Shown here in pieces: positions 37,120-57,928 of a stretch of DNA of 64,000 nucleotides. Both the position numbers and the translations under genes were made by a program. Below the pieces are notes generated by a model that worked only from the letters and a program-made list of their open reading frames with translations, made no database searches and was not told where the DNA came from. The first letter of the stretch is position 1, and each line of letters begins with the position of its first letter. Source of the DNA: a virus; the IMG/VR virus record IMGVR_UViG_3300045988_176782, positions 103,279 to 167,278 of that record; one strand, 5' to 3'.

Positions 37120-37121
37120 AT

Positions 37122-39607: not shown

Positions 39608-39700
39608 TTTACAATGAAAGGGAGCATTAGAGTAATTAACTAATGAGTAATGTGCCCCATACACAAGCTTTCATATTGTTTATAATATGGGGTGAATTTT

Positions 39701-40537: not shown

Positions 40538-40610
40538 AGTTGTTATGGTGTGAAAATCCAACCCATCAAGCCTCTTAATAATGCTCAAACCGATGGGAGT
40601 TTCATAGCTT

Positions 40611-40681
40611 AAGACGCATACAGCCAATTATTAATGTAAGTTTTTATTAGAAATAAAATAATACAAATAATTCGCGTCTTG
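40611..40681 (+). repeat. AAGAC..GTCTT element copy (E1)
   Basis: AAGACGC-ATACAGCCAAT...GCGTCTT-G followed by T-rich sequence. Confidence 0.6.
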
Positions 40682-40708
40682 TATTCATTTTCTTCTTTTC
40701 TTTTTTAA

Positions 40709-40773
40709 AAGACATATACAGCAAAAGATTTTACATCGCATAATAGTTGGCTGATTACCTACAATGTGTCTTG
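40709..40773 (+). repeat. AAGAC..GTCTT element copy (E2)
   Basis: AAGACAT-ATACAGCAAAA...GTGTCTT-G. Confidence 0.6.
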
Positions 40774-40781
40774 AAAAAAAT

Positions 40782-40810
40782 TTGACAAAAATAAAAAATT
40801 AAATTATAAT
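40782..40810 (+). promoter_or_regulatory. promoter TTGACA-N17-TATAAT driving a non-coding transcript
   Basis: -35 at 40782-87, -10 at 40805-10. Confidence 0.7.
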
Positions 40811-40816
40811 AAATCC

Positions 40817-41425
40817 ATAATAAAGAAAAGATATTTTTCTTTACTATATGATACCTCGGTGAAGAGCATTTGGCCAATGTGCCGAGAACAAACGGAAGAT
40901 AGCCAGCTCCATATGATGGATACATTATATGCCTGAGCCGCGAAAACAGTGATGTTTAGCGATAGGAGAAAAGACTCCAATATCAAGTTTGTGTGCTTTG
41001 TATTTCGCAATTTAACGCATAATTTCTCTGGAGAACACAATAGAAAGCAGGATGAATAGTCCTGCCGAATCCAAGGCGCCGTTAGCTGGTGACTGTCGGG
41101 GAAAAGATACGGCCTTGGAAACAACCACAAGTTCTTTTGTGATGAAACACAGAAATGTGATATAACAGAGGTTTGTAGTCTGAGTAGCTCAACACAGCGA
41201 ACAAAAAGATGATACAAATTGGCTATTGTTTCTAATTTGCTGAATGGCTTGGGTGAAAAGTGCGAGTAGTCAATCTCGTTAGAGCGTTGTTTGGATAAAG
41301 AAGTCAAGGAGTAGCTAACTTGGCTCAGCCTTTATCTTCTCTATGGCGGAATAAGATTGAAGAAATCACAAAGTAGGGCGAAGGTCCATCAGTTAGTAGA
41401 GAAAAATATCTTTTCTTTTTTTTAT
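40817..41425 (+). ncRNA. large (about 600 nt) structured RNA closed by a 25-bp terminal helix (ROOL/GOLLD-class candidate)
   Basis: 40822-40846 AAAGAAAAGATATTTTTCTTTACTA pairs with 41394-41418 TAGTAGAGAAAAATATCTTTTCTTT (one mismatch), followed by a T-run. No sense ORF. Many internal helices, e.g. CCAAGGC...GCCTTGG and GCAGGA..TCCTGC. Confidence 0.65.
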
Positions 41426-41442
41426 TTATGAAAGGAGATACT

Positions 41443-41607
41443 ATGTATAGTAGTAGAAGATTCTTTAGTGAAGATGCTTGGGTTGATTTTAATGAATGGC
41501 TTAGGGATTTTCACGGTGAAATTGTAAATGTAAGTCATACAACGGTTCCGATTGGAAGATTTGATTTCTGGATGGATATTGTGGTGGTTTATAAAAATTT
41601 GACATAA
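41443..41607 (+). CDS. small hypothetical protein (54 aa)
   Basis: AAAGGAG RBS; ends inside the next promoter. Confidence 0.4.
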   Translation: MYSSRRFFSEDAWVDFNEWLRDFHGEIVNVSHTTVPIGRFDFWMDIVVVYKNLT

Positions 41608-41626
41608 AAAATAATTACGATATAAT
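41599..41626 (+). promoter_or_regulatory. promoter TTGACA-N16-TATAAT
   Basis: -35 at 41599-604, -10 at 41621-26. Confidence 0.6.
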
Positions 41627-41655
41627 ATAGAAAATTAAGAAAGGAAGTTAAATCT

Positions 41656-41781
41656 ATGGAATGGATTTTAGGAATAGGTTGTTTGGCTTTTTTGTTTGTG
41701 TTGTATAAGCCGAATATTGAAAGAATGATTTACAGCATTAAAGATTGGATTGAGAAAGGAAATAAAGAAAATGACATTTGA
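41656..41781 (+). CDS. small membrane protein (41 aa)
   Basis: AAGGAAG RBS; MEWILGIGCLAFLFVLY. Confidence 0.4.
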   Translation: MEWILGIGCLAFLFVLYKPNIERMIYSIKDWIEKGNKENDI

Positions 41782-42220
41782 AACACTCCAGCAAGAAATG
41801 TATTCTGCTATGAAGTCCGGAGATAAATTTCGTAAAGAAGTTATTTCTGGTCTTATTGCTGACATTAAGCGCGTAGCTATTGATAAAAATTGTCGTGATA
41901 ATATTACTGAAGAAGTCGTAAATACAGTTCTTCTAAAAAGTCGTAAGATGGCACAAGAAATGATTGATACTTGTCCTGAATCTCGTCTTGACCTTCTTGA
42001 ACAATATAAACAAAACGCCGTAATTATGGACGAGTATGTTCCTAAGCTTATTACAGACACAAACGAAATTGCAGCGATTATTAGTCAACTTTTAGTTAAG
42101 TTTAATGTTGAACCTGTCAAAGCTAATATGGGTAAGATTATGAAACTTTGTAAGGAAAACCTTAATGGCAAAGTTGATATGAAAATTGTAAGTAATATTG
42201 TAAAATCTATTTTAGTCTAA
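41771..42220 (+). CDS. GatB/YqeY-domain protein
   Basis: MTFETLQQEMYSAMKSGDKFRKEVISGLIADIKR...ITEEVVNTVLLKS.K...E is the typical YqeY layout. Confidence 0.65.
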   Translation: MTFETLQQEMYSAMKSGDKFRKEVISGLIADIKRVAIDKNCRDNITEEVVNTVLLKSRKMAQEMIDTCPESRLDLLEQYKQNAVIMDEYVPKLITDTNEIAAIISQLLVKFNVEPVKANMGKIMKLCKENLNGKVDMKIVSNIVKSILV

Positions 42221-42236
42221 AGAAAGGAAGAGAAAA

Positions 42237-43565
42237 ATGTCTGAACATGTAGGTTATGTTGTAAAAATTAATTCATTGCGGCCTCATTCTAATGCTGACC
42301 GTCTTCAAATTGCTACTATTTTTGACTCTAATGTTATTGTTAGTCTTGATACCCATCTTGATGACATTGGCGTGTATTTTCCTTCTGATATTCAGCTCTC
42401 TAAGGAATTTTGTAAAGTAAATGACCTTGTTCGTCGTAAAGATGAAAATGGCAATCCTGCAGGTGGCTATCTTGACCCAAATAAGCGTAATATTCGTCCG
42501 TTGAAGTTGCGCGGTGAAAAAAGTGATGGTCTATATCTGCCCATTACTTGTATGATGGAGTTCTGTCCTATTTCTGACCTTAAGGTTGGCGACACTATTG
42601 GTGTTGTAAATGGGCACGAAATTTGTAAGAAGTATATTCCCCATCGCACGAAGGCATACCATTATACTGAAAAAGTAAGGAAGCAAAAGGTTAATTTTGC
42701 TCCTACCTTTTTTGAGCATTGCGATACCGCTCAACTTGCATACAACCTTGAAGCTTTCCGTGCAGGAGATGTTGTAGAGCTAACTCTTAAAATGCACGGG
42801 ACCAGTGCGAGAATGGGCTATCTGCCTTTGCTGCAACCTCGGACTTTGCTAGATAAAATTCTTCGTCGCACTCGCAAAACTTATGGAAATGTTATTGGCA
42901 CTCGCCGCGTTGTATTGGATGAAACTCATACTGGTGGTTTTTATGAGGACAATGCTTTCCGACGCCATATTGCTAAAAAGGTTGAAGGAAAACTCCATCG
43001 TGGAGAAACTATTTATGGAGAAATTGTAGGCTTTCAAGGTCCCAATGGCGCGCCTATTATGTCTTCTGTGAAAAACTCTAAAATTTCCGATAAAGCATTC
43101 ACGAAGCAATATGGTGAAGAAACTGTATTCTCTTATGATTGTAATGCTGCGAATGGTTATGAAGATGAACATCCTTGTTGTGAATTATATGTTTATCGTA
43201 TGACTATGGTAAATGATGACGGCGATGTGGTAGATTACTCTCCTGCGCAAATCCGTTATCGTTGTGAGCAAATGGGAGTTAAAGTTGTTCCTCAATTTGA
43301 AGTATTCGTAATTCCTCAAGATGAACCCCATCCTGGTGAATATGTAGTACGTAAAGTTGAAGAATACTATGACGGTCCTGACCCTATTGGTAAAACCCAT
43401 GTACGCGAAGGCGTTGTTGCTCGTATTTTGAATCGGAATAATTTTGCGGTTTATAAAATGAAGAATTGGAACTTCAAATGCCTTGAGGGTATTGTTAAGG
43501 ATGAAGCGGCAGAACCAGATATGGAAGAAGCGCAAGAAGAACTAGTGGAGGAGCAAACTGAATGA
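42237..43565 (+). CDS. RNA ligase with N-terminal OB/tRNA-binding-like domain (Rnl5-like architecture)
   Basis: N-terminus VVKINSLRPHSNADRLQIATI (tRNA_bind-like). Nucleotidyl-transferase motif I LKMHGTS (KxHG). Confidence 0.65.
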   Translation: MSEHVGYVVKINSLRPHSNADRLQIATIFDSNVIVSLDTHLDDIGVYFPSDIQLSKEFCKVNDLVRRKDENGNPAGGYLDPNKRNIRPLKLRGEKSDGLYLPITCMMEFCPISDLKVGDTIGVVNGHEICKKYIPHRTKAYHYTEKVRKQKVNFAPTFFEHCDTAQLAYNLEAFRAGDVVELTLKMHGTSARMGYLPLLQPRTLLDKILRRTRKTYGNVIGTRRVVLDETHTGGFYEDNAFRRHIAKKVEGKLHRGETIYGEIVGFQGPNGAPIMSSVKNSKISDKAFTKQYGEETVFSYDCNAANGYEDEHPCCELYVYRMTMVNDDGDVVDYSPAQIRYRCEQMGVKVVPQFEVFVIPQDEPHPGEYVVRKVEEYYDGPDPIGKTHVREGVVARILNRNNFAVYKMKNWNFKCLEGIVKDEAAEPDMEEAQEELVEEQTE

Positions 43566-44182
43566 CCTTTAGTTCGCTTTTTACTGGCTCTCTTCTTGCT
43601 GGTATTTTAATCGCTTTAGGAAATATGATGTATGTATGTATTGAGAATAAGATTGTTGCCGCGTTCTTATTCTCAATTGCATTATGCTTTATTAGAATCA
43701 AAGAACTAAATCTATTTACTGGTTCCATTGGGAAACTTTATTTTGATAAAAATTTAAAGATATACCATTTAATTTTTATCCTTTTGTTTAATATCACCGG
43801 CACAGCTATAATGCGTTTAGTGCCAAATTTTCCAGTGGATGTATATGCAATTGCAAGAATGAAATTCCTTGATGTTAGCTTATTGCGAGTTGGTTTTTAT
43901 TCTATTTTTTGCGGTATGTTAATGGTTATTGCTACAGATTCGCTAACTCCTATGTGGCTAACTATTATGTGTGTAGCTGGTTTTTTGCTTGCTGGTTTTA
44001 GACACAGTATTGCTGATAGTTGGTATTTTTGGTATTTACCGTTGGCAAACTACAAGACCGGATTAAAAGTTCTCGGTATTGAAATTTTAGGTAATTTCAT
44101 TGGCGGTTCTTTCATTGCTATTTTTATTAAAGAAAATTTACAAGACAAAGCAAAACCCCTATTAAATATAAAGAATCTTTAA
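43562..44182 (+). CDS. formate/nitrite-transporter (FNT)-like membrane protein, short
   Basis: ELNLFTGS and GFRHSIADSWYF resemble FocA ELFTGN / GFEHSIANM. Multiple TM segments. Confidence 0.45.
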   Translation: MTFSSLFTGSLLAGILIALGNMMYVCIENKIVAAFLFSIALCFIRIKELNLFTGSIGKLYFDKNLKIYHLIFILLFNITGTAIMRLVPNFPVDVYAIARMKFLDVSLLRVGFYSIFCGMLMVIATDSLTPMWLTIMCVAGFLLAGFRHSIADSWYFWYLPLANYKTGLKVLGIEILGNFIGGSFIAIFIKENLQDKAKPLLNIKNL

Positions 44183-44199
44183 TACTTTATTTAGAGAAG

Positions 44200-44230
44200 A
44201 AGACCGAGTTAATGCTCGGTCTTTTATTTA
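44200..44230 (+). terminator. intrinsic terminator
   Basis: AAGACCGAG/CTCGGTCTT hairpin plus T-rich tail. Confidence 0.75.
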
Positions 44231-44244
44231 TAAGGGAGATAGTT

Positions 44245-44439
44245 ATGGATGTTATTACTTATGCTTTATTAAGAAAAATTGAGCAAAGTGGCAGTAGCGG
44301 CGCGCCGGGAAAAAGTGCTTACGAGATTGCCAAAGAGCACGGTTTTTCTGGAACAGAACAAGAATGGTTAGAGAGCTTAAAAGCGGAATCTGACTTAGTT
44401 TTTGCTACTGATGATGACATCAGAGCTATTGTAAAATAA
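44245..44439 (+). CDS. small tail-fibre-motif protein
   Basis: GAPGKSAYEIAKEHGFSGTEQEWLESLKA motif is common in phage fibres. GGGAG RBS. Confidence 0.5.
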   Translation: MDVITYALLRKIEQSGSSGAPGKSAYEIAKEHGFSGTEQEWLESLKAESDLVFATDDDIRAIVK

Positions 44440-44453
44440 AGGAGGTTTTTAAT

Positions 44454-45257
44454 ATGGCAATGATTAAGAACGAAAATGATGGAAAAGTTCTTTTAACTAA
44501 TCATTTAGCCTTATTTTATAATTTAATTAAAGACAAATTCATTAGTCGTGATGAAATTGCAACTACTCAAGATGTTGAAAAATTATTCGCTACCTTACAA
44601 CAACTTAATACTTATGAAAAATTAAATGAAAAATTCCAAGAAGGCGGCGAAATTAAACTAACAAACAATATTATTATTCCCGCTGCGAATACAACAGAAG
44701 AAAGTCGCACAAAAATTACCAAAGATGCTTTTGTAGATTTTGGTAATAATATGGTTTTAGTTCCTGCTGAATTAGGAGGCTCTGATTCCAGTAATTGGGC
44801 AGGCTTATATGCCGATGGAGATAAAATTACTGTTATCCTAAATGGCAATGAAGGCGGTATCGCCACTGCTACAGCGACTGAAAACTTAGATTGTCCTTAT
44901 TGCGTAGGCGTATTAAATGGTGCTACTGTTATTATTAATGGTGGTCATTATAAAGGTTCCGGTAGTGCAATATATGTTCGCAATGGTTCTTGTATTATCA
45001 ATGGCGGTTTCTTTGAAGCCTATCCTTGGCAGAATGGAGTAAATGGTGAACTTAAGCCTTGGACTTTAAATTGTCAAAACGATACTTATAAGAAAGGCCT
45101 AGCTCATATTATTGTCCGCGGCGGCACCTATGTTAATTTTGACCCATCTAATCCTAAGACAGATGATGCAGAAACTTATGTTGATGCAAATTATCAGGTG
45201 GTTTCTGAAACTAAAACCAATGGAGATATTTGGTATTCTGTTGTAAAGAAAAATTGA
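44454..45257 (+). CDS. hypothetical protein (beta-helix-like?)
   Basis: AAGGAGG RBS; repeats INGGHYKG / INGGFFEA / VRGGTYVN. Confidence 0.5.
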   Translation: MAMIKNENDGKVLLTNHLALFYNLIKDKFISRDEIATTQDVEKLFATLQQLNTYEKLNEKFQEGGEIKLTNNIIIPAANTTEESRTKITKDAFVDFGNNMVLVPAELGGSDSSNWAGLYADGDKITVILNGNEGGIATATATENLDCPYCVGVLNGATVIINGGHYKGSGSAIYVRNGSCIINGGFFEAYPWQNGVNGELKPWTLNCQNDTYKKGLAHIIVRGGTYVNFDPSNPKTDDAETYVDANYQVVSETKTNGDIWYSVVKKN

Positions 45258-45282
45258 CTTTTATAAAAAATTCTTTTATAAT
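45254..45282 (+). promoter_or_regulatory. promoter TTGACT-N17-TATAAT
   Basis: -35 at 45254-59, -10 at 45277-82. Confidence 0.7.
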
Positions 45283-45313
45283 ATATACATAAGATGAAGA
45301 AAGGAAAGACGTT

Positions 45314-45631
45314 ATGAAGTTTTTATTATATGATTTGCAAACAGCTTTTGAAGCTGGCGTATCAGAGCATCCACAAGAACAGATGGGTAAATTATTTAAA
45401 GTAATTCATTGTGTTCCGCAATCAATTGGTGAATGCTGGTGGTTTTGTGTTGAAGATTATAATATAAAGCAACTTCCTCCTTATCTTACAGAAATGCGAC
45501 CATACAATCTTACTTATTGGCGAGATGGTTGTTATAAAACTTGCTCTTTTTGGCAAAAAACTAAAGGAGCTTGTTGCCATGGCGGCTGGGACTGTATAAA
45601 TAATTATAAAGAGGTAGAATCCGATGTTTGA
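45314..45631 (+). CDS. Cys/Trp-rich hypothetical protein
   Basis: Intact ORF, GAAAGGAAAG RBS. Confidence 0.5.
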   Translation: MKFLLYDLQTAFEAGVSEHPQEQMGKLFKVIHCVPQSIGECWWFCVEDYNIKQLPPYLTEMRPYNLTYWRDGCYKTCSFWQKTKGACCHGGWDCINNYKEVESDV

Positions 45632-45761
45632 TTTGGATGATTTGTATAAGATTACTTGTGAAGAATATTACAACTATATGGGATTTGATACATATGCTCC
45701 TGATTACGAAGGCGGTTCTACTGAAGAATTTGAATTAAAATTTGACGAAAACGAAAAATAA
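45624..45761 (+). CDS. small acidic protein (45 aa)
   Basis: ATG overlaps the upstream stop; ends inside the next promoter. Confidence 0.35.
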   Translation: MFDLDDLYKITCEEYYNYMGFDTYAPDYEGGSTEEFELKFDENEK

Positions 45762-45770
45762 ATATATAAT
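45742..45770 (+). promoter_or_regulatory. promoter TTGACG-N17-TATAAT driving a tRNA-like transcript
   Basis: -35 at 45742-47, -10 at 45765-70. Confidence 0.65.
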
Positions 45771-45901
45771 ATATTCAGAAAGTGAGAAACGGACAAGGCT
45801 TTGGCAAGTGAAGGAACTTTGATGTAGGAGATGAAAGTCGTTTGAACTAATAAAAAGTTCCTAATAAATTGGTGGGATGCGAGTGGTTTCTTACTTCTTA
45901 T

Positions 45902-46022
45902 GTGGGGTTAGTGTAATGGCAGCACGTTGGTTATAAGTGAGTCTTGGCAAAGAGTCATCAGCAATTATTCTTTCTTGCAGGGAGCCCGAAGGACAGGGTT
46001 CAATTCCCTTGACCCTACACCA
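45902..46022 (+). ncRNA. tRNA-like gene with oversized anticodon/variable region (about 121 nt), encoded CCA
   Basis: Acceptor GTGGGGT/ACCCTAC plus A plus CCA. U8, D arm GTGT-AATGGCA-GCAC. T-arm-like CAGGG-TTCAATTC-CCTTG. About 45 extra nt between the D and T arms; anticodon not assignable. Confidence 0.4.
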
Positions 46023-46067
46023 ACAATCATTTTGCAATTAAAGTAAAAGAAGAAAGGAAATAAGAAT

Positions 46068-46274
46068 ATGTTTGAGTATAAAGTTCGTTTTCGCAATGAA
46101 GATGGTGATATTAGTTTGTCTCATGGTGTAATCGGCGCGAAGTCTTACTCTAAAGCAGCAAAAGAAATTATAGAATATTTCGGTACAGAAATTATCACTA
46201 TGGAACTTTCTGAATTAATGAATCCTTTAGAAGAAGATGGCCTGAAAGGTTTTATGGAGGAAAATTTTGAATGA
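46068..46274 (+). CDS. hypothetical protein
   Basis: Intact ORF with RBS. Confidence 0.5.
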   Translation: MFEYKVRFRNEDGDISLSHGVIGAKSYSKAAKEIIEYFGTEIITMELSELMNPLEEDGLKGFMEENFE

Positions 46275-46603
46275 AAGTAGCAATTCTTGCAGGCAGTCAG
46301 TCTTTTTCTTATGACCAAGGAATATATGACTTTACCATTGAAGAAGTAAATAATATTGAAGAAGCTAATGAAATCGGCGCAGAAATGTCTCGTGATGTAA
46401 TTGATAGTTATCATTGTATTTCTTCTTTAATTGAAGATGCTGCTCATGACGCACAAGAAAATGGTGAAGATTATGATGAAGCATATGAAGATGCTTTACT
46501 ACAAGAACTTTTTTGGGAAGTTTTTGAGTTAAAGGATGACGCGCCAAAATCAATTAAAATTGATGAAGATTATGAAGATTTTCTTAAGAAATGGAGAAAA
46601 TAA
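46271..46603 (+). CDS. highly acidic protein
   Basis: ATGA overlap. Asp/Glu-rich (DAQENGEDYDEAYEDA..., DEDYEDF). Confidence 0.5.
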   Translation: MKVAILAGSQSFSYDQGIYDFTIEEVNNIEEANEIGAEMSRDVIDSYHCISSLIEDAAHDAQENGEDYDEAYEDALLQELFWEVFELKDDAPKSIKIDEDYEDFLKKWRK

Positions 46604-47164
46604 ATGACGCCTAAAGAATTGGGTCAATTATTTGTTGATTTAATAGAAATTGATGATAATGGTTGTTCTCCTCAAATTTATATGAAAGATTTAGTTGAAA
46701 TTGAACCAGAATTTCGTACTACTAATGGTTCTCAATGGAGCCGAGCTAATGGTTGGCTAGGAAAACAGTATTTAATTCAAAAAACTTATAAATCTGGACG
46801 AGTTGATTCAATTCAATTAGTAGGCAAAAATACTTCAAATGAAAATCATTCTGTTCCTGCAGAAGTATATGCTTATTATAAAGGAAAGCCTTGTGTTTTC
46901 ACAGGAACAACAAACAATATTGAAATTGACCATAAAAATGCTCGTTATAATAATTCAGAATATACAATGGCCGATTTTCAGCCTGTATGCAAAATGATGA
47001 ATGATATTAAACGAGAAATTTGTAAAAAATGTCGTCTAAACAAACTTAGGCCAAAAGCATCTTCTCTTGGCTTTTTAAAAGATTTTATTTCTGGCGACGA
47101 AAAATCTGAAACTTGTCAAGGATGTTATTATTATGACCCAATTGAATTTAGAAGAAACCTATAA
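46604..47164 (+). CDS. HNH/beta-beta-alpha-Me nuclease-like protein (candidate restriction endonuclease)
   Basis: NNIEIDHKNARYNN plus Cys pairs CKKC...CQGC. Overlaps the methyltransferase gene. Confidence 0.45.
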   Translation: MTPKELGQLFVDLIEIDDNGCSPQIYMKDLVEIEPEFRTTNGSQWSRANGWLGKQYLIQKTYKSGRVDSIQLVGKNTSNENHSVPAEVYAYYKGKPCVFTGTTNNIEIDHKNARYNNSEYTMADFQPVCKMMNDIKREICKKCRLNKLRPKASSLGFLKDFISGDEKSETCQGCYYYDPIEFRRNL

Positions 47165-47861
47165 AAATCAAAGCTGTTTTGAGTTCCTTCCTACTATTCC
47201 TTCTAAATCCATTAATCTTATTCTAATTGACCCGCCATATGAAATTTCTCGCGCCACTAATTTTCAAAGTGGAGAAGAAACTGGAACTGATACTGACCGT
47301 TTTCGTATCTCTATGGATTTTGGCGATTGGGATAAGAATTTTTTTGGCTTAGAAAAGGTTTTTAAAGAAGCACAGCGGATTTTGGTTGATGGCGGCACAA
47401 TGATTTGTTTTTATGATTTATGGAAAATTGAAACAATTAAACAATATTATGAAAATAATAAGTTTAAACAAATTCGCTTTCTTGAATGGATTAAAACCAA
47501 TCCTGTGCCAATTAATAGCAAAATCAACTATTTAACTAACACTCGTGAAGTTGCGGTTTTGGGAATAAAAAAATCTAAACCAACTTTTAATAGTTCATAT
47601 GATAAGGGAATTTATGAATATCCTATTTGTCATGAAAAAGGCCGCTTCCATCCCACACAAAAGCCATTAGAGTTAATGGAAGCTTTGATTCTAAAACATT
47701 CTAATGAAGGCGACACTGTTTTAGATTGTTTTGCAGGAAGTGGCACAACTGGTGTTGCTGCGATTAAAAACAATCGGAAATTTATTGGTTGTGAAATTTC
47801 TCCAGAATATTATTCTCAATCTTTGGAACGACTAAAAAATTTGACAAAAATGAAAAATTAA
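47133..47861 (+). CDS. DNA methyltransferase, beta-class (N6A or N4C)
   Basis: LILIDPPYE (motif IV) near the N-terminus, and VLDCFAGSGTTGVAA (motif I) near the C-terminus. Confidence 0.8.
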   Translation: MTQLNLEETYKNQSCFEFLPTIPSKSINLILIDPPYEISRATNFQSGEETGTDTDRFRISMDFGDWDKNFFGLEKVFKEAQRILVDGGTMICFYDLWKIETIKQYYENNKFKQIRFLEWIKTNPVPINSKINYLTNTREVAVLGIKKSKPTFNSSYDKGIYEYPICHEKGRFHPTQKPLELMEALILKHSNEGDTVLDCFAGSGTTGVAAIKNNRKFIGCEISPEYYSQSLERLKNLTKMKN

Positions 47862-47869
47862 ATTATAAT
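47841..47869 (+). promoter_or_regulatory. promoter TTGACA-N17-TATAAT for the tRNA island
   Basis: -35 at 47841-46 (inside the end of the MTase CDS), -10 at 47864-69. Confidence 0.65.
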
Positions 47870-47882
47870 TAATACATAATGA

Positions 47883-47945
47883 ACGGCAGATACAGCAAAT
47901 TTTTAAGCTTGTGATTAGGGATTACAAATGCGATTTCCTGCCGTG
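47883..47945 (+). repeat. AAGAC..GTCTT-type element, covarying variant (E3)
   Basis: ACGGCAG-ATACAGCAAAT...CTGCCGT-G: same core, different but complementary flanks. Confidence 0.6.
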
Positions 47946-47950
47946 TTTAT

Positions 47951-48024
47951 AGGCGAATAAGATAATGGTAGTCCCGCGCTCTCCAAAAGCGTTCGTCCCT
48001 GTTCAAATCGGGGTTCGCCTGCCA
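47951..48024 (+). tRNA. tRNA-Trp (CCA anticodon), CCA end encoded
   Basis: Acceptor AGGCGAA/TTCGCCT. Anticodon stem GCGCT/AGCGT, loop CT-CCA-AA. T arm CCCTG-TTCAAAT-CGGGG. Confidence 0.75.
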
Positions 48025-48029
48025 AAATA

Positions 48030-48108
48030 AAGACGCATACAGCTAATATTTTGGTTAAAAAGTTTTCTACAAAAAAGCTTAAGAGATTCAATTTCTCAAT
48101 GCGTCTTG
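48030..48108 (+). repeat. AAGAC..GTCTT element copy (E4)
   Basis: AAGACGC-ATACAGCTAAT...GCGTCTT-G-TTTTT. Confidence 0.6.
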
Positions 48109-48115
48109 TTTTTAT

Positions 48116-48190
48116 GGCTCGTTAGCCTAGTGGTTTAGGCAGTAGACTGTTAATCTACCTAGGCTGGTTCAATTCCAGCACGAGCCTCCA
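48116..48190 (+). tRNA. tRNA-Asn (GTT)
   Basis: Acceptor GGCTCGT/ACGAGCC. D arm GCCT..AGGC. Loop CT-GTT-AA. T arm GCTGG-TTCAATT-CCAGC. CCA encoded. Confidence 0.85.
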
Positions 48191-48412
48191 TTAATTCAAT
48201 AATACGCGTGAGGCCGCGGTGCATATTGGCAAGAACAAGTATCATGAACTCAGCGCCCGAAGGAGAGGTAAATATCGGTTAACTACCGAGGCGCACCTAT
48301 GTGATGAATTGGACCCTTTCAAGTTGAAAGACACCTACGAGGGAGACGACGGAATAATTGGCCGCCTTTAAACGCTTGTCCATGAAAATGGCACTATTAT
48401 TGAATATTTAAA
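48191..48412 (+). ncRNA. structured RNA of about 220 nt closed by an 11-bp helix
   Basis: ATTCAATAATA (48194-204) pairs with TATTATTGAAT (48395-405). The interior is visibly GC-richer than the genome, with several complementary segments. No ORF. Confidence 0.45.
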
Positions 48413-48624
48413 AAACTCTGTCCTCAACGTGGATCGGAAAGTAATTTGCCTATTATTATAGGTAAGTCCACGACCTGATAATAGGTAAATTATGAAGTTT
48501 GTAACAGTGTTCTTCAAAATAACTTCTGAACAGCGGCATAAGAGCCACGCCAGAGGAGCGGATTGGTGTGAAAGATAGAGAGTTGCAATTATCTATTTAT
48601 TCACAGGCCATAAAGAAGTTATAT

Positions 48625-48740
48625 GCCAAGGTAGCTTAATTGGTAGAGCAATAGAGTAAAAAGGAATCTTGTAAAAGATTTTGGCCGCGATTGTTTATAT
48701 TTGGGTCTGTGTGTTCTCGGTTCAAGTCCGAGCCTTGGCT
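48625..48740 (+). ncRNA. tRNA-like gene with a 43-nt insertion in the anticodon loop
   Basis: Canonical acceptor GCCAAGG/CCTTGGC, D arm GCTT-AATTGGTA-GAGC, anticodon stem ATAGA/TCTGT, 5-nt variable region and T arm CTCGG-TTCAAGT-CCGAG. The loop is 50 nt and contains the hairpin AATCTT-GTAA-AAGATT. The 3' loop part ATTTGGG would give anticodon TTG. Confidence 0.45.
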
Positions 48741-48747
48741 TTACCAT

Positions 48748-48824
48748 TGCGGAGTAGAGAAGTGGTTTATCTCGTCAGCCTCATGAGCTGAAAAACGGAG
48801 GTTCAAATCCTCCCTCCGCAACCA
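48748..48824 (+). tRNA. tRNA with CAT anticodon (Met or Ile2)
   Basis: Acceptor TGCGGAG/CTCCGCA. Stem TCAGC/GCTGA, loop CT-CAT-GA. T arm GGAGG-TTCAAAT-CCTCC. CCA encoded. Confidence 0.8.
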
Positions 48825-48892
48825 ATAGAACTTTGAAAAACTTTATCCTTTGCCAAGTTTACCATAAAGAGGGTTTAAAGGCGAGGTCATGA

Positions 48893-48967
48893 TGCTCAAT
48901 AGCTTAACGGTAGAGCAGCGATTTCATAAGTCGTTAGATATAGGTTCAAATCCTATTTGAGCAACCA
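48893..48967 (+). tRNA. second tRNA with CAT anticodon (Met/fMet/Ile2)
   Basis: Acceptor TGCTCAA/TTGAGCA. D arm GCTT..GAGC. Loop TT-CAT-AA. T arm ATAGG-TTCAAAT-CCTAT. CCA encoded. Confidence 0.8.
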
Positions 48968-49093
48968 AGCGCTACACAGATTCCCACTAAACTACCACTG
49001 GCGTCTCAGACCCAATAGGAGAGCGGCGATATGTAGCTTGCGGAAGCGCTATATAAGAAGCGAAGTAAGTGGTGGGCGGTTTACCGCCCGATA

Positions 49094-49167
49094 TGCGGGT
49101 GTAGCTCAATGGTAGAATTCTAGCCTTCCAAGCTGGTTACGTGGGTTCGATTCCCATTACTCGCTCC
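49094..49167 (+). tRNA. tRNA-Gly (TCC)
   Basis: Acceptor GCGGGTG/TACTCGC. Stem CTAGC/GCTGG, loop CT-TCC-AA. T arm GTGGG-TTCGATT-CCCAT. CCA encoded. Confidence 0.8.
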
Positions 49168-49431
49168 AATTGATTTCAAGTAGAACAAGTTAGCTTCTTG
49201 TGAAAGAAATCTGCGCTATGACTACGGAAGACAGCGAGTCAGGGTTTGTAGAATTTTCCATACAATTCTACCGTGAACCAGTTCAATTACTGTTGCTCTG
49301 CTCTGCGACTGCGTGAAGGTCGGTTAAAAAGGTGAAGCGGGTTATTACTGCTTCCAAGAGGAGTAAGCGGGAGATGGGCGCAAAGTCTGCGGTGAGTCTA
49401 AATCCGTGCTAGCAAAATAGACCAATATTAT
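49168..49431 (+). ncRNA. structured inter-tRNA spacer (264 nt)
   Basis: No ORF. Perfect hairpins GTAGAATT..AATTCTAC and GATTTC..GAAATC. GC-richer than the flanks. Confidence 0.35.
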
Positions 49432-49506
49432 GGCTCCGTAGTCAAGCGGTTAAGACGCTGGGTTTTCATCCCAGAGACGCGAGTTCGACTCTCGCCGGAG
49501 CTACCA
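49432..49506 (+). tRNA. tRNA-Glu (TTC)
   Basis: Acceptor GGCTCCG/CGGAGCT. Stem CTGGG/CCCAG, loop TT-TTC-AT. T arm GCGAG-TTCGACT-CTCGC. CCA encoded. Confidence 0.8.
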
Positions 49507-49511
49507 TAGTA

Positions 49512-49611
49512 AAGACACAGGTTAAACAGCAATACTTATAGTGGTTAATAAAATTTTTGTTGTATAAAATTTTTAATGGGTTCAAATCCCACAAAAGAAC
49601 CCTGCGTCTTG
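49512..49611 (+). repeat. AAGAC..GTCTT element copy with inserted T-arm-like remnant (E5)
   Basis: AAGACAC...AACAGCAATAC...TGGGTTCAAATCCCA...GCGTCTT-G-TTTTTT. Confidence 0.5.
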
Positions 49612-49617
49612 TTTTTT

Positions 49618-49708
49618 GGAAAGGTGGCTGAGTTGGTTTAAAGTGACAGATTGCTAATCTGTTGAGGGATTTTCCCCTCCGGAGGTTCAAATCCTCTCCT
49701 TTCCGCCA
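49618..49708 (+). tRNA. tRNA-Ser (GCT), class II
   Basis: Acceptor GGAAAGG/CCTTTCC. Stem ACAGA/TCTGT, loop TT-GCT-AA. Long variable arm. T arm GGAGG-TTCAAAT-CCTCT. CCA encoded. Confidence 0.85.
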
Positions 49709-49711
49709 TAT

Positions 49712-49790
49712 GTGCGCGAGTAACCGAATTGGCATAGGTACTGGTCTAAGAAGCCAGGTTTTATGAGTTTAAGTCTCACCTTGCACACCA
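49712..49790 (+). tRNA. atypical tRNA, anticodon AAG (Leu codon CUU) but short variable region
   Basis: Stem CTGGT/GCCAG, loop CT-AAG-AA. Acceptor GTGCGCG/CTTGCAC has one mismatch. Irregular D arm. CCA encoded. Confidence 0.45.
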
Positions 49791-49793
49791 TTT

Positions 49794-49853
49794 AAGATAC
49801 TAATAACGATTATTATTTTCTTTACAGTTTTTAAAGAACAAGAATGTGTCTTG
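49794..49853 (+). repeat. AAGAC..GTCTT element, divergent copy (E6)
   Basis: AAGATAC...GTGTCTT-G. Confidence 0.4.
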
Positions 49854-49858
49854 ATTAT

Positions 49859-49933
49859 GGGGCAGTGACGCAATGGTAGCGTGTTAGCTTTGCAAGCTGA
49901 AAGTTGAGGGTTCAAATCCCTTCTGCTCCACCA
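49859..49933 (+). tRNA. tRNA-Ala (TGC)
   Basis: Acceptor GGGGCAG/CTGCTCC. D arm ACGC..GCGT. Loop TT-TGC-AA. T arm GAGGG-TTCAAAT-CCCTT. CCA encoded. Confidence 0.85.
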
Positions 49934-50053
49934 GACGTGCCAGTTTCTCCGATGGCCGTATAACTTAGAAATAAGTGAAGCAGAAAGTAGCTATTTTGCA
50001 TCGGAAAGCAAGTCTCCTTATTCCTTGCCATACATAAAAGAATAAGGACGCGT

Positions 50054-50130
50054 GCGCTGATAGCCCAATTGGCAGAGGCAATAGACTTAGGATCTATTCA
50101 GTGAGAGTTCAAATCTCTCTTGGCGTACCA
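50054..50130 (+). tRNA. tRNA with TAG anticodon (Leu CUA/CUG) but class I short variable region
   Basis: Acceptor GCGCTGA/TTGGCGT (3 wobbles). Stem ATAGA/TCTAT, loop CT-TAG-GA. T arm GAGAG-TTCAAAT-CTCTC. A73, CCA encoded. Confidence 0.6.
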
Positions 50131-50133
50131 TTT

Positions 50134-50198
50134 AAGACAGTTACAGCAAATCCTCAAAAGATGCGATTGTTAAAATTACGTTATTATTTACTGTCTTG
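50134..50198 (+). repeat. AAGAC..GTCTT element copy (E7)
   Basis: AAGACAG-TTACAGCAAAT...CTGTCTT-G. Confidence 0.6.
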
Positions 50199-50204
50199 CT
50201 ATTT

Positions 50205-50268
50205 CGGGATATAGTGCGATGTGCTGATAACATGCAAGTCGCGGATTCAAATCCCGCCCCTGTAACCA
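50205..50268 (+). ncRNA. truncated tRNA-like element (CUGAUAA loop, T arm, ..ACCA tail)
   Basis: Loop CT-GAT-AA at 50224-30. T-arm-like GCGGA-TTCAAAT-CCCGC. No convincing 5' acceptor strand or D arm. Alternative long hairpin CGGGAT...ATCCCG. Confidence 0.3.
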
Positions 50269-50269
50269 T

Positions 50270-50345
50270 CGGGGAATACGTCAATTGGCAGACGGCTTGC
50301 TTTGGGAGCAAGCAGCTCTCAGTTCAAATCTGAGTTCTCCGACCA
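50270..50345 (+). tRNA. tRNA-Pro (TGG)
   Basis: Acceptor CGGGGAA/TTCTCCG. D arm CGTC..GACG. Stem CTTGC/GCAAG, loop TT-TGG-GA. T arm CTCAG-TTCAAAT-CTGAG. CCA encoded. Confidence 0.85.
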
Positions 50346-50398
50346 GAGGAATTTATAATCCTTTTTCATAACAAATGGGAGAATTTCTCCCATCTCCT

Positions 50399-50468
50399 TG
50401 GCCGCAAGTAGAGAAATGTTATCTCACCGTTTTAACGGAGTAGGCGGTTCAATTCCGCCCTCGGCCAT
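50399..50468 (+). ncRNA. aberrant tRNA-like element with a 6-nt TTTTAA anticodon-type loop
   Basis: Good T arm GGCGG-TTCAATT-CCGCC and 6-bp acceptor TGGCCG/CGGCCA. The anticodon-type stem CACCG/CGGAG (one mismatch) encloses only TTTTAA, and the variable region is too short. Confidence 0.3.
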
Positions 50469-50598
50469 TAGTCGCCCTGGCACAGGGAGAAATGTGTTGC
50501 TCGGTAGGAGGGCATCCGCGGAGAATATACTATCCTACACAAAACAAAATGGGACTGATGCAGGTCCCACTTATAAGGGGAAGTTCCCCTTTTAATAT

Positions 50599-50684
50599 GG
50601 AGGAGTGGCGGAATGACGAGACGCAGTTGACTCAAAATCAACCACGAAGAAACACTGAGAGTTCAAATCTCTTCTCCTCTACCA
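50599..50684 (+). tRNA. tRNA-Leu (CAA), class II
   Basis: Acceptor GGAGGAG/CTCCTCT. Stem GTTGA/TCAAC, loop CT-CAA-AA. Long variable arm. T arm GAGAG-TTCAAAT-CTCTT. A73, CCA encoded. Confidence 0.85.
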
Positions 50685-50690
50685 GGCCTT

Positions 50691-50765
50691 AAGACAGATC
50701 AGCAATTTATTTAGATGAATGCATTTTTCACCTCCAAGGTAGGCTCTTGGTTGTATCCTGTCTTG
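50691..50765 (+). repeat. AAGAC..GTCTT element copy (E8)
   Basis: AAGACAG-ATCAGCAATTT...CTGTCTT-G-TTTTT. Confidence 0.55.
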
Positions 50766-54026: not shown

Positions 54027-54087
54027 ATGTCTATAAAAGATAAGCAATAGCTCTATTGCTTCCAAAATGAAAAGGAGAAAAGAAAAC

Positions 54088-55601: not shown

Positions 55602-55616
55602 AGGTGGTGAAACTTT

Positions 55617-57911: not shown

Positions 57912-57928
57912 TTATTTGATTTTTAAAT

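What the first reader, a model, noticed from the sequence alone, without database searches (positions are those of the whole stretch)
40611..50765. Eight copies of a covarying 'AAGACNN-ATACAGCAAAT ... NNGTCTT-G-Tn' element flanking tRNA genes
- The copies lie at 40611, 40709, 47883, 48030, 49512, 49794, 50134 and 50691.
- Each starts a few nt after a tRNA 3' end (or after the endonuclease gene) and ends a few nt before the next tRNA or promoter.
- The 7-nt flanks always pair and they covary: AAGACGC/GCGTCTT, AAGACAG/CTGTCTT, AAGACAT/GTGTCTT, and a completely different ACGGCAG/CTGCCGT.
- The core ATACAGC(A/T/C)AA(A/T) next to the 5' flank is conserved in five copies (40611, 40709, 47883, 48030, 50134). 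It is partial in 49512 and 50691 and not recognisable in the divergent 49794 copy.
- The 45-90 nt interior is variable.
- This is the signature of a conserved RNA (or DNA-level) structure that is not a tRNA, not a canonical terminator (the loop is too long), and not a ribozyme class I can name.
- Possible roles are a processing signal, a protein-binding module or a small stable RNA.
Basis: seen in the sequence. Interest (0 to 1): 0.7.

Follow-up and report, generated by a model that had tools for sequence, protein, structure and literature searches.

The report
Phage Y-like small RNAs beside tRNAs
The eight repeats are genes for small structured RNAs of a widespread phage family not found described in the sources searched; they sit next to a Ro60-like RNA-binding protein gene and carry the same signature motif as the enigmatic Class I RNAs of social amoebae, which points to a new kind of Ro/Y-RNA particle.

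Summary
Eight + strand copies lie at the stated coordinates. A covariance model trained only on copies from other genomes scores six of them at 29-52 bits (E <= 4e-4). Two copies (49512, 49794) are degenerate.

The unit has four parts:
- a 7-bp terminal helix (AAGACNN/NNGUCUU) in which every pair covaries;
- the unpaired motif (A/U)UACAGCAA(A/U)U just after the 5' strand;
- a variable interior;
- a 3' G.

It is a strand-specific, RNA-level family. It occurs in many uncultured phage contigs and in cultured phages of Bacillus, Listeria, Staphylococcus, Enterococcus, E. coli, Campylobacter and Mycobacterium. Wherever a DUF2828/DUF7788 gene was found nearby, the element was on that gene's strand, usually tens to a few thousand bases away. 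In the window this gene is 54067-55575, and its predicted fold matches Ro60 over the full length.

Longer relatives carry the tRNA-like domain of YrlA Y RNAs. The helix-plus-motif module is the one seen in Dictyostelium Class I RNAs (Rfam RF01414), which were thought unique to social amoebae.

Best reading: these are multi-copy Y-RNA-like small RNAs, released from the tRNA operon by tRNA processing, that bind the phage Ro60-like protein. Binding, expression and function are inferred, not shown.

The parts
40611..40681 (+). Copy 1. P1 is AAGACGC/GCGTCTT followed by G; core ATACAGCCAAT. An interior hairpin (AATTATT/AATAATT) stacks on P1.
   Evidence: CM R2 51.9 bits, E 1.7e-9. It lies 12 nt after the abiF motif 40562-40598.
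40709..40773 (+). Copy 2. P1 is AAGACAT/GTGTCTT (one U.G pair) followed by G; core ATACAGCAAAA.
   Evidence: CM R2 36.7 bits. It ends 9 nt before the promoter 40782-40810 of the ROOL RNA.
47841..47869 (+). Sigma-70-type promoter (TTGACA-17-TATAAT, 12/12 match) that starts the operon carrying the elements and the tRNAs.
   Evidence: Copy 3 begins 13 nt after the -10 box. The same layout occurs in Bacillus phage Tsamsa and in the Halobacillus locus L235.
47883..47945 (+). Copy 3. P1 is ACGGCAG/CTGCCGT, which changes 4 of 7 pairs relative to the other copies, followed by G; core ATACAGCAAAT.
   Evidence: CM R2 33.8 bits. tRNA-Trp starts 6 nt after the P1 3' strand.
48030..48108 (+). Copy 4. P1 is AAGACGC/GCGTCTT followed by G; core ATACAGCTAAT. 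The interior holds two hairpins.
   Evidence: fold z-score -4.2; CM R2 45.7 bits. It lies between tRNA-Trp (ends 48024) and tRNA-Asn (starts 48116).
49512..49611 (+). Copy 5, degenerate. P1 is AAGACAC/GCGTCTT with an A.C mismatch, and 5 nt are inserted before ACAGCAAT. The interior holds a T-arm-like GGGTTCAAATCCC.
   Evidence: CM R2 16.2 bits, E 0.35, which is at background level. It lies between tRNA-Glu and tRNA-Ser.
49794..49853 (+). Copy 6, degenerate. P1 is AAGATAC/GTGTCTT (one U.G pair) followed by G; no core motif.
   Evidence: CM R2 17.8 bits, E 0.15. It lies between the tRNA at 49714-49787 and tRNA-Ala.
50134..50198 (+). Copy 7. P1 is AAGACAG/CTGTCTT followed by G; core TTACAGCAAAT.
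   Evidence: CM R2 46.0 bits. It starts 3 nt after tRNA-Leu(UAG).
50691..50765 (+). Copy 8. P1 is AAGACAG/CTGTCTT followed by G; the core has a 1-nt deletion (ATCAGCAATTT). It is the last unit of the array and is followed by TTTTTATTT.
   Evidence: CM R2 28.9 bits, E 4e-4.
47951..50684 (+). tRNA array, with several unassigned structured spacers, in which copies 4-7 are embedded (copies 3 and 8 flank it). It is the presumed source of the processing cuts that free the small RNAs.
   Evidence: In relatives, modal gaps are 2-3 nt after the upstream tRNA and 5-7 nt before the downstream tRNA.
54067..55575 (+). Gene for the proposed protein partner, 502 aa. Pfam assigns DUF2828 plus DUF7788. The predicted fold is an alpha-helical repeat ring plus a vWA domain, as in Ro60. 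A DxSxS MIDAS motif sits at D302-S306.
   Evidence: Pfam. PHROG 850 'RNA-binding protein'. AF2 model with pLDDT 77. Foldseek top 9 PDB hits are all full-length Ro60/Rsr, E 1e-6 to 1e-4. Homologues at 32-33% identity in mycobacteriophages are annotated 'Ro-like RNA binding protein'.
41750..43565 (+). Context only: a YqeY-like gene and an RNA ligase gene. The same RNA-repair neighbourhood (RtcB, RNA ligase, YqeY-like) flanks the Ro-like gene in Listeria phage P100.

Best explanation
**What the copies are.** Each copy is a gene for a small non-coding RNA, about 60-100 nt in this phage. Its two ends pair in a 7-bp helix. A conserved unpaired motif, (A/U)UACAGCAA(A/U)U, lies directly 3' of the 5' strand, and a G follows the 3' strand.

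**How the RNAs are made.** They are transcribed with the tRNAs from sigma-70-type promoters. RNase P cleavage at the next tRNA and 3' trimming of the previous tRNA set them free.

**What they bind.** The helix-plus-motif module is the handle for the phage's Ro60-like ring protein (gene 54067-55575), in the way the terminal stem of a Y RNA binds Ro60. The variable interior is the effector or gate part. In relatives this interior is a YrlA-type tRNA-like domain or even a whole tRNA. In this phage it has been reduced to short hairpins, like YrlB.

**What the particle does.** It most likely acts in RNA surveillance or repair, or in hijacking host exoribonucleases, during infection. This is the paradigm of Ro60/Y RNA/PNPase and of the Thermus phage phiLo Ro60.

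**Shown versus inferred.**
- Shown: the RNA-level conserved structure, the family's breadth, the gene linkage and the Ro60-like predicted fold.
- Inferred: expression as discrete RNAs, binding and function.
For: **1. Structure**
- RNAalifold on 43 short copies predicts exactly this helix and nothing else.
- All 7 pairs show double-sided changes. There are 141 compensatory cells against 31 in shuffles (0/500), and slid controls collapse.
- The 7 nt upstream of a core match find a complement downstream in 208 of 596 cases. A 7-mer shifted 12 nt upstream does so in 38 of 596.

**2. RNA level and strand**
- G.U outnumbers A.C.
- 81 of 81 CM hits lie on the gene strand in 926 kb of protein-anchored loci; so do 61 of 61 strict pattern hits.

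**3. Linkage to the protein across deep divergence**
- Wherever the gene was seen in a motif-anchored locus, it was on the same strand: 15 of 15.
- Staphylococcus phage S-CoN_Ph11: three tandem copies directly after the gene, with no tRNA between.
- Mycobacteriophage Rumpelstiltskin: three copies directly after the 'RNA-binding protein' gene gp54 (homologues in related mycobacteriophages are annotated 'Ro-like RNA binding protein'), closed by a terminator, with no tRNA array nearby.
- Campylobacter phage Los1: one copy 22 nt upstream of the gene.
- Also present next to the gene in Enterococcus EfV12-phi1, Listeria P100, Bacillus Tsamsa, E. coli VpaE1 and a Halobacillus isolate genome.

**4. 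The protein looks like Ro60**
- The Foldseek top 9 PDB hits are full-length Ro60/Rsr, including a phage Ro60.
- BFVD hits include TROVE and 'Ro-like' proteins.

**5. Y RNA kinship**
- Long members have the order V hairpin, T arm, closed acceptor hairpin, D arm between the terminal helix strands.
- They hit Rfam YrlA at up to 45 bits, E 9e-7.

**6. Known precedent**
- Y-like RNAs are encoded within a few kb of Ro60 on the same strand in bacteria and phages (PMC4201824, PMC12135203).
Against: - No experiment or transcriptome was available. Neither expression of discrete RNAs nor binding has been shown.
- The motif differs from the known Ro/Rsr-binding motifs (GNCGAAN0-1G, GGUCCGA; PMC4201824).
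- The protein is not detectably TROVE by sequence, so Ro-type binding is an analogy.
- In most gut-phage loci the tRNA array, the elements and the gene all lie together: 389 tRNAs upstream against 12 downstream of the gene. Linkage there is confounded with the tRNA array.
- In the window the nearest copy is 3.3 kb from the gene and the farthest 13.4 kb.
- Aeromonas phage Aeh1 has the gene but no copy within 5 kb.
- Only 42 of 80 protein-anchored loci had a strict copy within 6 kb.
- For the look-alike Dictyostelium Class I RNA, the only direct binder reported is an RRM protein, Rnp1A (PMC7919456).
Confidence: 0.65

Rival explanations
1. The helix plus motif is only a processing or spacer signal of polycistronic tRNA precursors. 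A leader-trailer helix would be recognised by a host or phage RNase, or would protect tRNA ends. The excised piece would be a by-product with no partner protein.
For: - 61 of 112 copies have a tRNA within 20 nt on at least one side, at very regular distances.
- Some copies wrap a complete tRNA. L097:2756-2865 contains a 60-bit tRNA.
- The tRNAs and the elements share the same position relative to the gene.
Against: - Tandem copies occur without any adjacent tRNA, directly after the Ro-like gene, in Staphylococcus and Mycobacterium phages.
- Three copies sit directly upstream of the gene in Halobacillus and in Listeria P100.
- Window copies 1 and 2 are not next to tRNAs.
- Most tRNA junctions in the same arrays lack the element.
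Confidence: 0.12
2. The RNAs are real small RNAs, but their partner is a different protein, such as an RRM-type binder as in Dictyostelium, the RNA ligase or a host factor. The Ro-like gene would then be just another member of the same tRNA/RNA-repair gene neighbourhood.
For: - Rnp1A, an RRM protein, binds Class I RNA DdR-21 directly (PMC7919456).
- RNA ligase, RtcB and YqeY genes recur nearby.
- The motif is unlike known Ro-binding sites.
Against: - The Ro-like gene is the neighbour present in every checked lineage that carries the elements, including small loci that consist of just the gene plus copies plus a terminator.
- No other conserved neighbour was seen in the Staphylococcus, Campylobacter and Mycobacterium loci.
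Confidence: 0.15
3. The copies are intrinsic terminators or attenuators with unusually long loops.
For: Three window copies (48030, 49512, 50691) are followed by a run of T.
Against: - None is flagged by the terminator scan.
- Across 142 copies the bases after the 3' G are A/T-mixed, not a U-run.
- Downstream tRNAs start 5-8 nt later without promoters.
- The conserved single-stranded motif has no role in termination.
Confidence: 0.03
4. The copies are DNA-level elements: short inverted repeats of a mobile element, or recombination sites that shuffle tRNA cassettes.
For: - They are multi-copy.
- They have inverted termini and variable cargo, including tRNA-like pieces.
Against: - They keep strictly one orientation relative to transcription.
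- The G.U over A.C bias supports an RNA-level structure.
- The helix sequence differs between copies in one genome while pairing is kept.
- No target-site duplications were seen, and no associated recombinase gene was noted in the loci inspected (not systematically searched).
- The same design exists as an expressed RNA in Dictyostelium (PMC7919456).
Confidence: 0.03

Closest known systems
Class I RNAs of dictyostelid social amoebae (Rfam RF01414; Aspegren 2004, Avesson 2011, Kjellin 2021 PMC7919456)
   Same: - The design is the same. A short covarying helix joins the 5' and 3' ends, the motif lies directly after the 5' strand, the rest is variable, and the length is about 60 nt.
- D. discoideum RNAs read GUUGAC-CU-UACAGCAA(A/U)U...GUCAAC-UG. 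The phage RNAs read AAGACNN-A-UACAGCAA(A/U)U...NNGUCUU-G(U).
- 24 of 28 distinct D. discoideum RNAs carry UACAGCAA at the same offset. The two following positions have the same base frequencies as in the phages.
- RF01414 gives full-length sub-threshold hits on phage copies: P100 23.1 bits and Rumpelstiltskin 18.9 bits.
- Both occur as multi-copy, clustered genes.
   Different: - The hosts are bacterial phages with sigma-70 promoters and tRNA operons, not eukaryotic DUSE promoters.
- The helix is 7 bp rather than 6 bp.
- The first two or three motif positions (CCU) are not shared.
- Window copies do not reach any RF01414 score.
- Long phage members carry tRNA-like cargo that is unknown in Class I RNAs.
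- The only known direct binder in Dictyostelium is an RRM protein.
- Class I RNAs were reported to be absent outside Dictyostelia.
Bacterial and phage Y RNAs (YrlA RF02553, YrlB, Yrn1) with Ro60/Rsr; Thermus phage phiLo Ro60 with Yrl1/Yrl2
   Same: - They are modular small RNAs with a terminal stem and a conserved unpaired motif next to it.
- They are encoded on the same strand as, and close to, a ring-shaped Ro-fold protein, often in several copies.
- Long members have the YrlA tRNA-like domain in the same order: V, T, closed acceptor hairpin, D.
- Short members parallel YrlB (PMC4201824, PMC12135203).
   Different: - The conserved motif is UACAGCAA, not GNCGAAN0-1G or CGAA.
- The partner is DUF2828/DUF7788, not a Pfam TROVE protein. 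It has about 12% identity to Ro60 and the similarity is seen only at fold level.
- Scores stay below the YrlA gathering threshold.
- The RNAs are embedded in tRNA arrays, with up to eight copies per genome.
ROOL/GOLLD and other large or small structured RNAs of phage tRNA regions (Rfam RF03087, RF02032, abiF RF03085, skipping-rope RF02924)
   Same: - They share the genomic niche.
- A ROOL RNA lies 58 nt after copy 2, and an abiF motif lies 12 nt before copy 1.
- ROOL, GOLLD, tmRNA and skipping-rope RNAs recur in the related loci.
   Different: The sequence and structure are unrelated. These families have no known link to a Ro-like protein.

Membership tests
Dictyostelid Class I RNA (RF01414) | A short helix joins the 5' and 3' ends, with structure rather than sequence conserved. 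| tested here: met
   The helix is 7 bp and all pairs covary. Six of eight window copies fit the model of this design.
Dictyostelid Class I RNA (RF01414) | An 11-nt motif, CCUUACAGCAA, lies directly after the 5' strand of the helix and is largely unpaired. | tested here: met
   Positions 4-11 (UACAGCAA) are identical. Position 3 is U in about 20% of phage copies, and positions 1-2 are not shared. Placement relative to the helix differs by one nucleotide (Dicty sequences). Five window copies have the motif, two have it partially and one lacks it.
Dictyostelid Class I RNA (RF01414) | Length 42-65 nt with a variable interior; conserved ends AAG...CUGU. | tested here: inconclusive
   The short phage class has a median of 66 nt and the window copies are 59-99 nt. 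The ends are (A)AAG...CUUG(U), similar but not identical.
Dictyostelid Class I RNA (RF01414) | Score at or above the Rfam gathering threshold (41.5 bits). | tested here: not met
   There is no RF01414 hit on window copies even at E <= 10. Relatives reach 18.9 and 23.1 bits.
Dictyostelid Class I RNA (RF01414) | A eukaryotic gene with a DUSE promoter about 60 nt upstream; restricted to Dictyostelia. | tested here: not met
   The genome is a phage. Transcription comes from sigma-70-type promoters and tRNA operons.
Y RNA / YrlA (RF02553) | Encoded within a few kb of a Ro60 orthologue and on its strand. | tested here: inconclusive
   The strand matches in every locus where the gene was found near an element, and all 61 strict and all 81 CM hits in protein-anchored loci lie on the gene strand. 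Distance ranges from 20 nt to several kb in relatives and is 3.3-13.4 kb in the window. However, the protein is Ro60-like by predicted fold only, not a TROVE orthologue.
Y RNA / YrlA (RF02553) | The Ro/Rsr-binding motif GNCGAAN0-1G (or GGUCCGA) near the 5' end. | tested here: not met
   The conserved motif is UACAGCAA and no CGAA motif is present. The definition is from PMC4201824.
Y RNA / YrlA (RF02553) | A tRNA-like domain (T arm, closed acceptor-like hairpin, D arm) between the strands of the terminal stem. | tested here: not met
   It is absent from the eight window copies; copy 5 has only a T-arm remnant. It is present in about 40 long relatives, with the best Rfam YrlA score 45.1 bits against a gathering score of 69.
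Y RNA / YrlA (RF02553) | Physical binding to the Ro60 ring. | not testable with these tools
   This requires EMSA, RIP or a structure.
Ro60/TROVE protein family (for the partner gene 54067-55575) | Match to the TROVE sequence profile. | tested here: not met
   Pfam gives only DUF2828 and DUF7788. phmmer and a profile of A1 find no Ro60 among PDB sequences.
Ro60/TROVE protein family (for the partner gene 54067-55575) | A ring of helical repeats followed by a vWA domain with a MIDAS motif. | tested here: met
   The AF2 model has helices at residues 2-284 and an alpha/beta domain at 297-493. The Foldseek top 9 PDB hits are full-length Ro60/Rsr, TM 0.4-0.57. D302-T-S-G-S306 is invariant. This rests on a predicted structure with mean pLDDT 77.
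Intrinsic terminator | A G+C-rich hairpin with a short loop followed by a U-run. | tested here: not met
tRNA | A cloverleaf detected by ARAGORN or the Rfam tRNA model. | tested here: not met
   No tRNA call overlaps the eight copies. Some relatives do enclose a tRNA.

The most novel reading that the evidence does not exclude
The phage elements and the Class I RNAs of Dictyostelium may be one ancient RNA family: the cognate small RNA of the DUF2828/DUF7788 Ro60-like proteins. That protein family spans phages of at least three bacterial phyla, giant viruses and eukaryotes (plants are documented; amoebae were not checked here). If so, a second lineage of Ro/Y-RNA particles exists alongside TROVE-type Ro60 with its CGAA-type Y RNAs. 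The 20-year-old question of what Class I RNAs do would also become directly testable, by asking whether they bind a DUF2828 protein.
Probability: 0.4. Interest if true: 0.9.

Novelty: new variant of a known kind. Interest (0 to 1): 0.75.

Why it matters
**Scale of the protein family**
- The partner protein family is very large. It has 6,321 representatives at 50% identity in public data.
- It is present in 704 cultured phage genomes, including model and applied phages: Listeria P100, Felix O1-like coliphages, Bacillus Tsamsa, staphylococcal and enterococcal phages.
- It is annotated only as 'RNA-binding' or 'Ro-like', and no RNA partner was found described in the sources searched here.

**What this finding adds**
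- It supplies a candidate partner RNA with a clear, mutable signature. Ro/Y-type biology in phages becomes experimentally accessible in tractable systems.
- It offers an explanation for some of the unassigned spacers in phage tRNA arrays.
- It links a eukaryotic RNA class of unknown function, thought to be a dictyostelid invention tied to multicellularity, to a much older and wider RNA-protein system.

**Caveat:** no paper linking these was found in the searchable library. Subscription-only literature could not be searched.

Tried and rejected
**Readings considered and dropped**
1. Circularly permuted tRNA genes that need ligation. This was my first reading of the long copies. I dropped it when the same order of arms proved to be the YrlA tRNA-like domain.
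2. Self-cleaving ribozymes or other known families. There is no Rfam hit on the copies at gathering or at E <= 5-10.
3. Terminators.
4. Anticodon-loop decoys. Some short relatives have CUNNNAA loops (for example CUUUUAA), but the window copies do not, so this was not pursued.

**Searches that found nothing**
5. Megablast of the region against cultured phages gave no match.
6. A trimmed covariance model (R1: helix plus core only) failed to find real copies, because the variable interior exceeds the model's window. It was replaced by R2.
7. A relaxed pattern scan of the window was too noisy in this AT-rich DNA to reveal further copies.
8. Sequence-level links of the protein to Ro60 (phmmer, a profile against PDB sequences, NCBIfam) found nothing.

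**Controls and tests that could not be completed**
9. The 'all elements lie upstream of the gene' result turned out to be confounded with tRNA array position. It is not used as independent evidence.
10. I could not find out whether Dictyostelium has a DUF2828 protein. The proteome file in the supplement is truncated, and the representative search lists only close relatives.
11. Avesson 2011, which lists the other Class I RNA-bound proteins, is not held.

Full report
**1. Observation**

The window is AT-rich (36% G+C) phage-like DNA with almost all genes on the + strand. ARAGORN and Rfam place the following features:
- a tRNA array at 47951-50684;
- a suppressor-type tRNA(CUA) at 39464-39553;
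- a ROOL RNA at 40831-41406 (296 bits);
- an abiF motif at 40562-40598.

Five have a perfect 7-bp helix. Two have one U.G pair, and one (49512) has an A.C mismatch. Five carry the core (A/T)TACAGC(A/C/T)AA, two carry an indel version and one (49794) has none. All eight are followed by G.

Covariance model R2 was trained on 43 short copies from other genomes, with the window and its near-identical relatives excluded. It recovers six copies at 28.9-51.9 bits (E 4e-4 to 2e-9). It scores the two degenerate ones at background level (16-18 bits; the best unrelated hit is 17.4 bits). It finds no ninth copy.

**2. The unit**

Across 142-189 non-redundant copies collected from public contigs, the consensus is (A)AAGACNN | A UACAGCAA (A/U)U ... 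variable ... | NNGUCUU | G.

Evidence that the helix is real:
- RNAalifold on the short class predicts this 7-bp helix and nothing else.
- All seven pairs show compensatory changes. There are 141 such cells against 31 in shuffles (0/500), and the signal vanishes when the partner is slid by 1-3 columns. Pairing itself was a selection criterion, so only the covariation counts as evidence, not the 98% paired.
- Anchoring on the core alone, the 7 nt upstream find a complement downstream in 208 of 596 cases. A 7-mer taken 12 nt further upstream does so in 38 of 596.

Evidence that the structure acts in + strand RNA:
- Non-canonical pairs are mostly G.U rather than A.C.
- Every hit in protein-anchored loci lies on the transcribed strand: 61 of 61 by pattern and 81 of 81 by model.

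The copies are not terminators. A U-run after the helix is not conserved, and none of the eight window copies is flagged as terminator-like.

**3. Cargo**

Sizes are bimodal, at 50-70 nt and 110-125 nt. Short copies, including all eight in the window, hold one or two unconserved hairpins.

About 40 long copies hold, in this order, a small hairpin, a T arm, a closed acceptor-like hairpin, a D arm and sometimes an anticodon arm. I first read this as a permuted tRNA. It is in fact the tRNA-like domain described for YrlA Y RNAs (PMC4201824). Rfam YrlA hits these copies below threshold: best 45.1 bits, E 9e-7, full model length.

About a dozen copies enclose a normal-order tRNA. One example is a 60-bit tRNA inside L097:2756-2865.

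**4. The partner gene**

The ORF 54067-55575 (502 aa) matches Pfam DUF2828 plus DUF7788 and PHROG 850 'RNA-binding protein'.

An AlphaFold2 model (pLDDT 77, pTM 0.78) has as its nine best PDB matches only full-length Ro60/Rsr structures: Xenopus, human, Deinococcus and Thermus phage phiLo, with E 1e-6 to 1e-4 and TM up to 0.57. After those come isolated vWA domains. Viral models annotated TROVE or 'Ro-like' also match.

Sequence methods do not see Ro60. Homologues at 32-33% identity in mycobacteriophages are deposited as 'Ro-like RNA binding protein'. The DxSxS MIDAS motif is invariant.

The family is very large. It has more than 7,500 clusters at 90% identity, 6,321 representatives at 50% identity and 704 cultured phage records.

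**5. Linkage**

Starting from the RNA motif, 15 element-bearing loci also contained the gene, always on the same strand. At least seven more carry it elsewhere on the same contig.

Starting from the protein, 42 of 80 viral loci had strict copies. All were on the gene strand and upstream.

The tRNAs are also almost all upstream, 389 against 12. In these gut and rumen phages the three features (tRNA array, elements, gene) therefore form one block, and position alone does not tie the RNA to the protein.

The decisive cases are cultured phages and one isolate genome in which the array is absent or elsewhere:

| Genome | Copies and position |
|---|---|
| Staphylococcus phage S-CoN_Ph11 | three tandem copies at 6532-6739, directly after the gene (5001-6512) |
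| Mycobacteriophage Rumpelstiltskin | three copies (one YrlA-type) at 10478-10734, directly after gp54, closed by a terminator, no tRNAs nearby |
| Campylobacter phage Los1 | one copy 22 nt upstream of the gene |
| Halobacillus rhizosphaerae T66 | five copies, three of them directly upstream of the gene |
| Listeria P100 | three copies between a promoter and the gene |
| Enterococcus EfV12-phi1 | three copies upstream |
| Bacillus Tsamsa | five copies, the last about 90 nt upstream |
| E. coli VpaE1 | three copies just downstream |

Aeromonas phage Aeh1 had none within 5 kb.

The motif drifts with lineage: UGGACNC-(C/U)(U/A)-ACAGCAA in Mycobacterium phages, AGNNNNC-UA-ACAGCAAUUAC in Listeria phages and AGACNNN-UUACAGCAAA in coliphages. 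It keeps ACAGCAA, the helix and the 3' G throughout.

**6. Link to Class I RNAs**

While scanning the mycobacteriophage locus, Rfam reported a weak match to RF01414, the Class I RNA of Dictyostelium (18.9 bits). A full-length 23.1-bit match falls on a Listeria P100 copy.

Kjellin et al. 2021 (PMC7919456) define Class I RNAs by:
- a 6-bp covarying helix joining the ends;
- an 11-nt motif next to the 5' strand;
- conserved AAG...CUGU ends;
- a variable rest and a length of about 60 nt;
- many clustered genes;
- unknown function.

They also report absence outside Dictyostelia.

Their curated D. discoideum set (supplement file 19) reads GUUGAC-CU-UACAGCAA(A/U)U...GUCAAC-UG. In that set, 24 of 28 distinct RNAs carry UACAGCAA at one fixed offset. 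The two following positions have the same base frequencies as in the phages (A 67%/U 33% then U 75%, against A 69%/U 27% then U 68%).

DUF2828 proteins also occur in plants and giant viruses. Whether Dictyostelium has one could not be checked here.

**7. Mechanism proposed**

*Shown:*
- a strand-specific, covarying RNA module;
- its multi-copy presence in tRNA operons;
- regular spacing to the tRNAs, with modal gaps of 2-3 nt after the previous tRNA and 5-7 nt before the next;
- promoters placed just before first copies;
- conserved linkage to a gene whose predicted protein fold matches Ro60.

*Inferred:*
- RNase P and 3' trimming of the flanking tRNAs release the RNAs.
- The helix and the unpaired motif bind the Ro-like ring.
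- The variable part (tRNA-like in relatives) tethers or gates other factors, as Y RNAs do with PNPase (PMC4201824, PMC12135203).
- The particle serves RNA surveillance or repair, or the takeover of host nucleases. This fits the recurrent RNA ligase, RtcB and YqeY neighbours.

The eight window copies would be minimal, YrlB-like members. Two of them are decaying.

**8. Verdict**

This is a real feature and more than a curiosity. It fails membership of both nearest Rfam families on score. It also fails YrlA on the binding motif and on sequence-level TROVE membership of the partner protein, and Class I on host and promoter. In architecture it works like both.

I file it as a new variant of the Ro/Y-RNA kind, with a substantial chance that it unites phage RNAs and dictyostelid Class I RNAs in one family. 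No paper making either link was found. The library does not cover subscription journals.

Noticed in passing
window 39464-39553 and 39692-40537: A 90-nt tRNA with anticodon CUA (ARAGORN calls it 'tRNA-Pyl') lies just upstream of a GIY-YIG-type endonuclease frame. That frame reads through five in-frame TAG codons and ends at TAA. Several other + strand frames (for example 51387-52691, 55611-57926, 37113-37754) also lengthen when TAG is read as sense. This suggests partial amber recoding.
   Followed up: partly
window 40831-41406 and 40562-40598: A full-length ROOL RNA (296 bits) with its own perfect promoter (40782-40810), and an abiF RNA motif (49.9 bits), flank copies 1 and 2. Related loci carry ROOL, GOLLD-like, tmRNA and skipping-rope RNAs. 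They also carry a sub-threshold ROOL-like RNA in Listeria phage P100 (L248:6762-7313, 86 bits) and a sub-threshold twister-P1-like hit (L051:1222-1302).
   Followed up: no
window 48191-48624, 48968-49094, 49169-49431, 49934-50053, 50346-50598: These are long, G+C-richer spacers inside the tRNA array. They have no ORF, no tRNA call and no Rfam match, so they are probably further structured RNAs. They include tRNA-like remnants near 50205-50269 and 50395-50470.
   Followed up: no
window 48625-48740 and 45880-46022: The first is a tRNA with an insertion of about 45 nt, found by Rfam (48 bits) but not by ARAGORN. The second is a tRNA-like sequence with a large insertion upstream of the array, which ends in a T arm plus ACCA and touches the tmRNA model only at its 3' end.
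   Followed up: no
L097:2756-2865, L049:1443-1541, L029:5392-5506 and similar: In some relatives the helix-plus-motif module encloses a complete, normal-order tRNA, and the leader can pair with the acceptor 5' strand. This may mark how Y-like RNAs arise from tRNA genes, or it may be a pre-tRNA class handled by the Ro-like protein.
   Followed up: partly
L039, L116, L182, L123, L079, L004, L045, L084 (short relatives): Many short copies end in a 5-bp hairpin with an anticodon-like 7-nt loop: CUUUUAA most often, and also CUGUUAA, CUGGUAA and CUUUAAA. This hints at anticodon-arm mimicry, for example as decoys for anticodon nucleases. It is not seen in the window copies.
   Followed up: no
L251 (Staphylococcus phage S-CoN_Ph11) 6519-6866: Tiny 'hypothetical protein' CDS features in the deposited annotation overlap the three tandem RNA elements and are probably mis-annotations. 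In the Listeria P100 RefSeq record the tRNAs are annotated on the strand opposite to the one Rfam finds.
   Followed up: no
window 41750-43565; L248 11074-14858: A YqeY-like gene and an RNA ligase lie near the elements in the window. RtcB, a YqeY-like 'tRNA amidotransferase', an RNA ligase and a phosphoesterase follow the Ro-like gene in Listeria P100. Together these form a recurring RNA-repair neighbourhood.
   Followed up: partly
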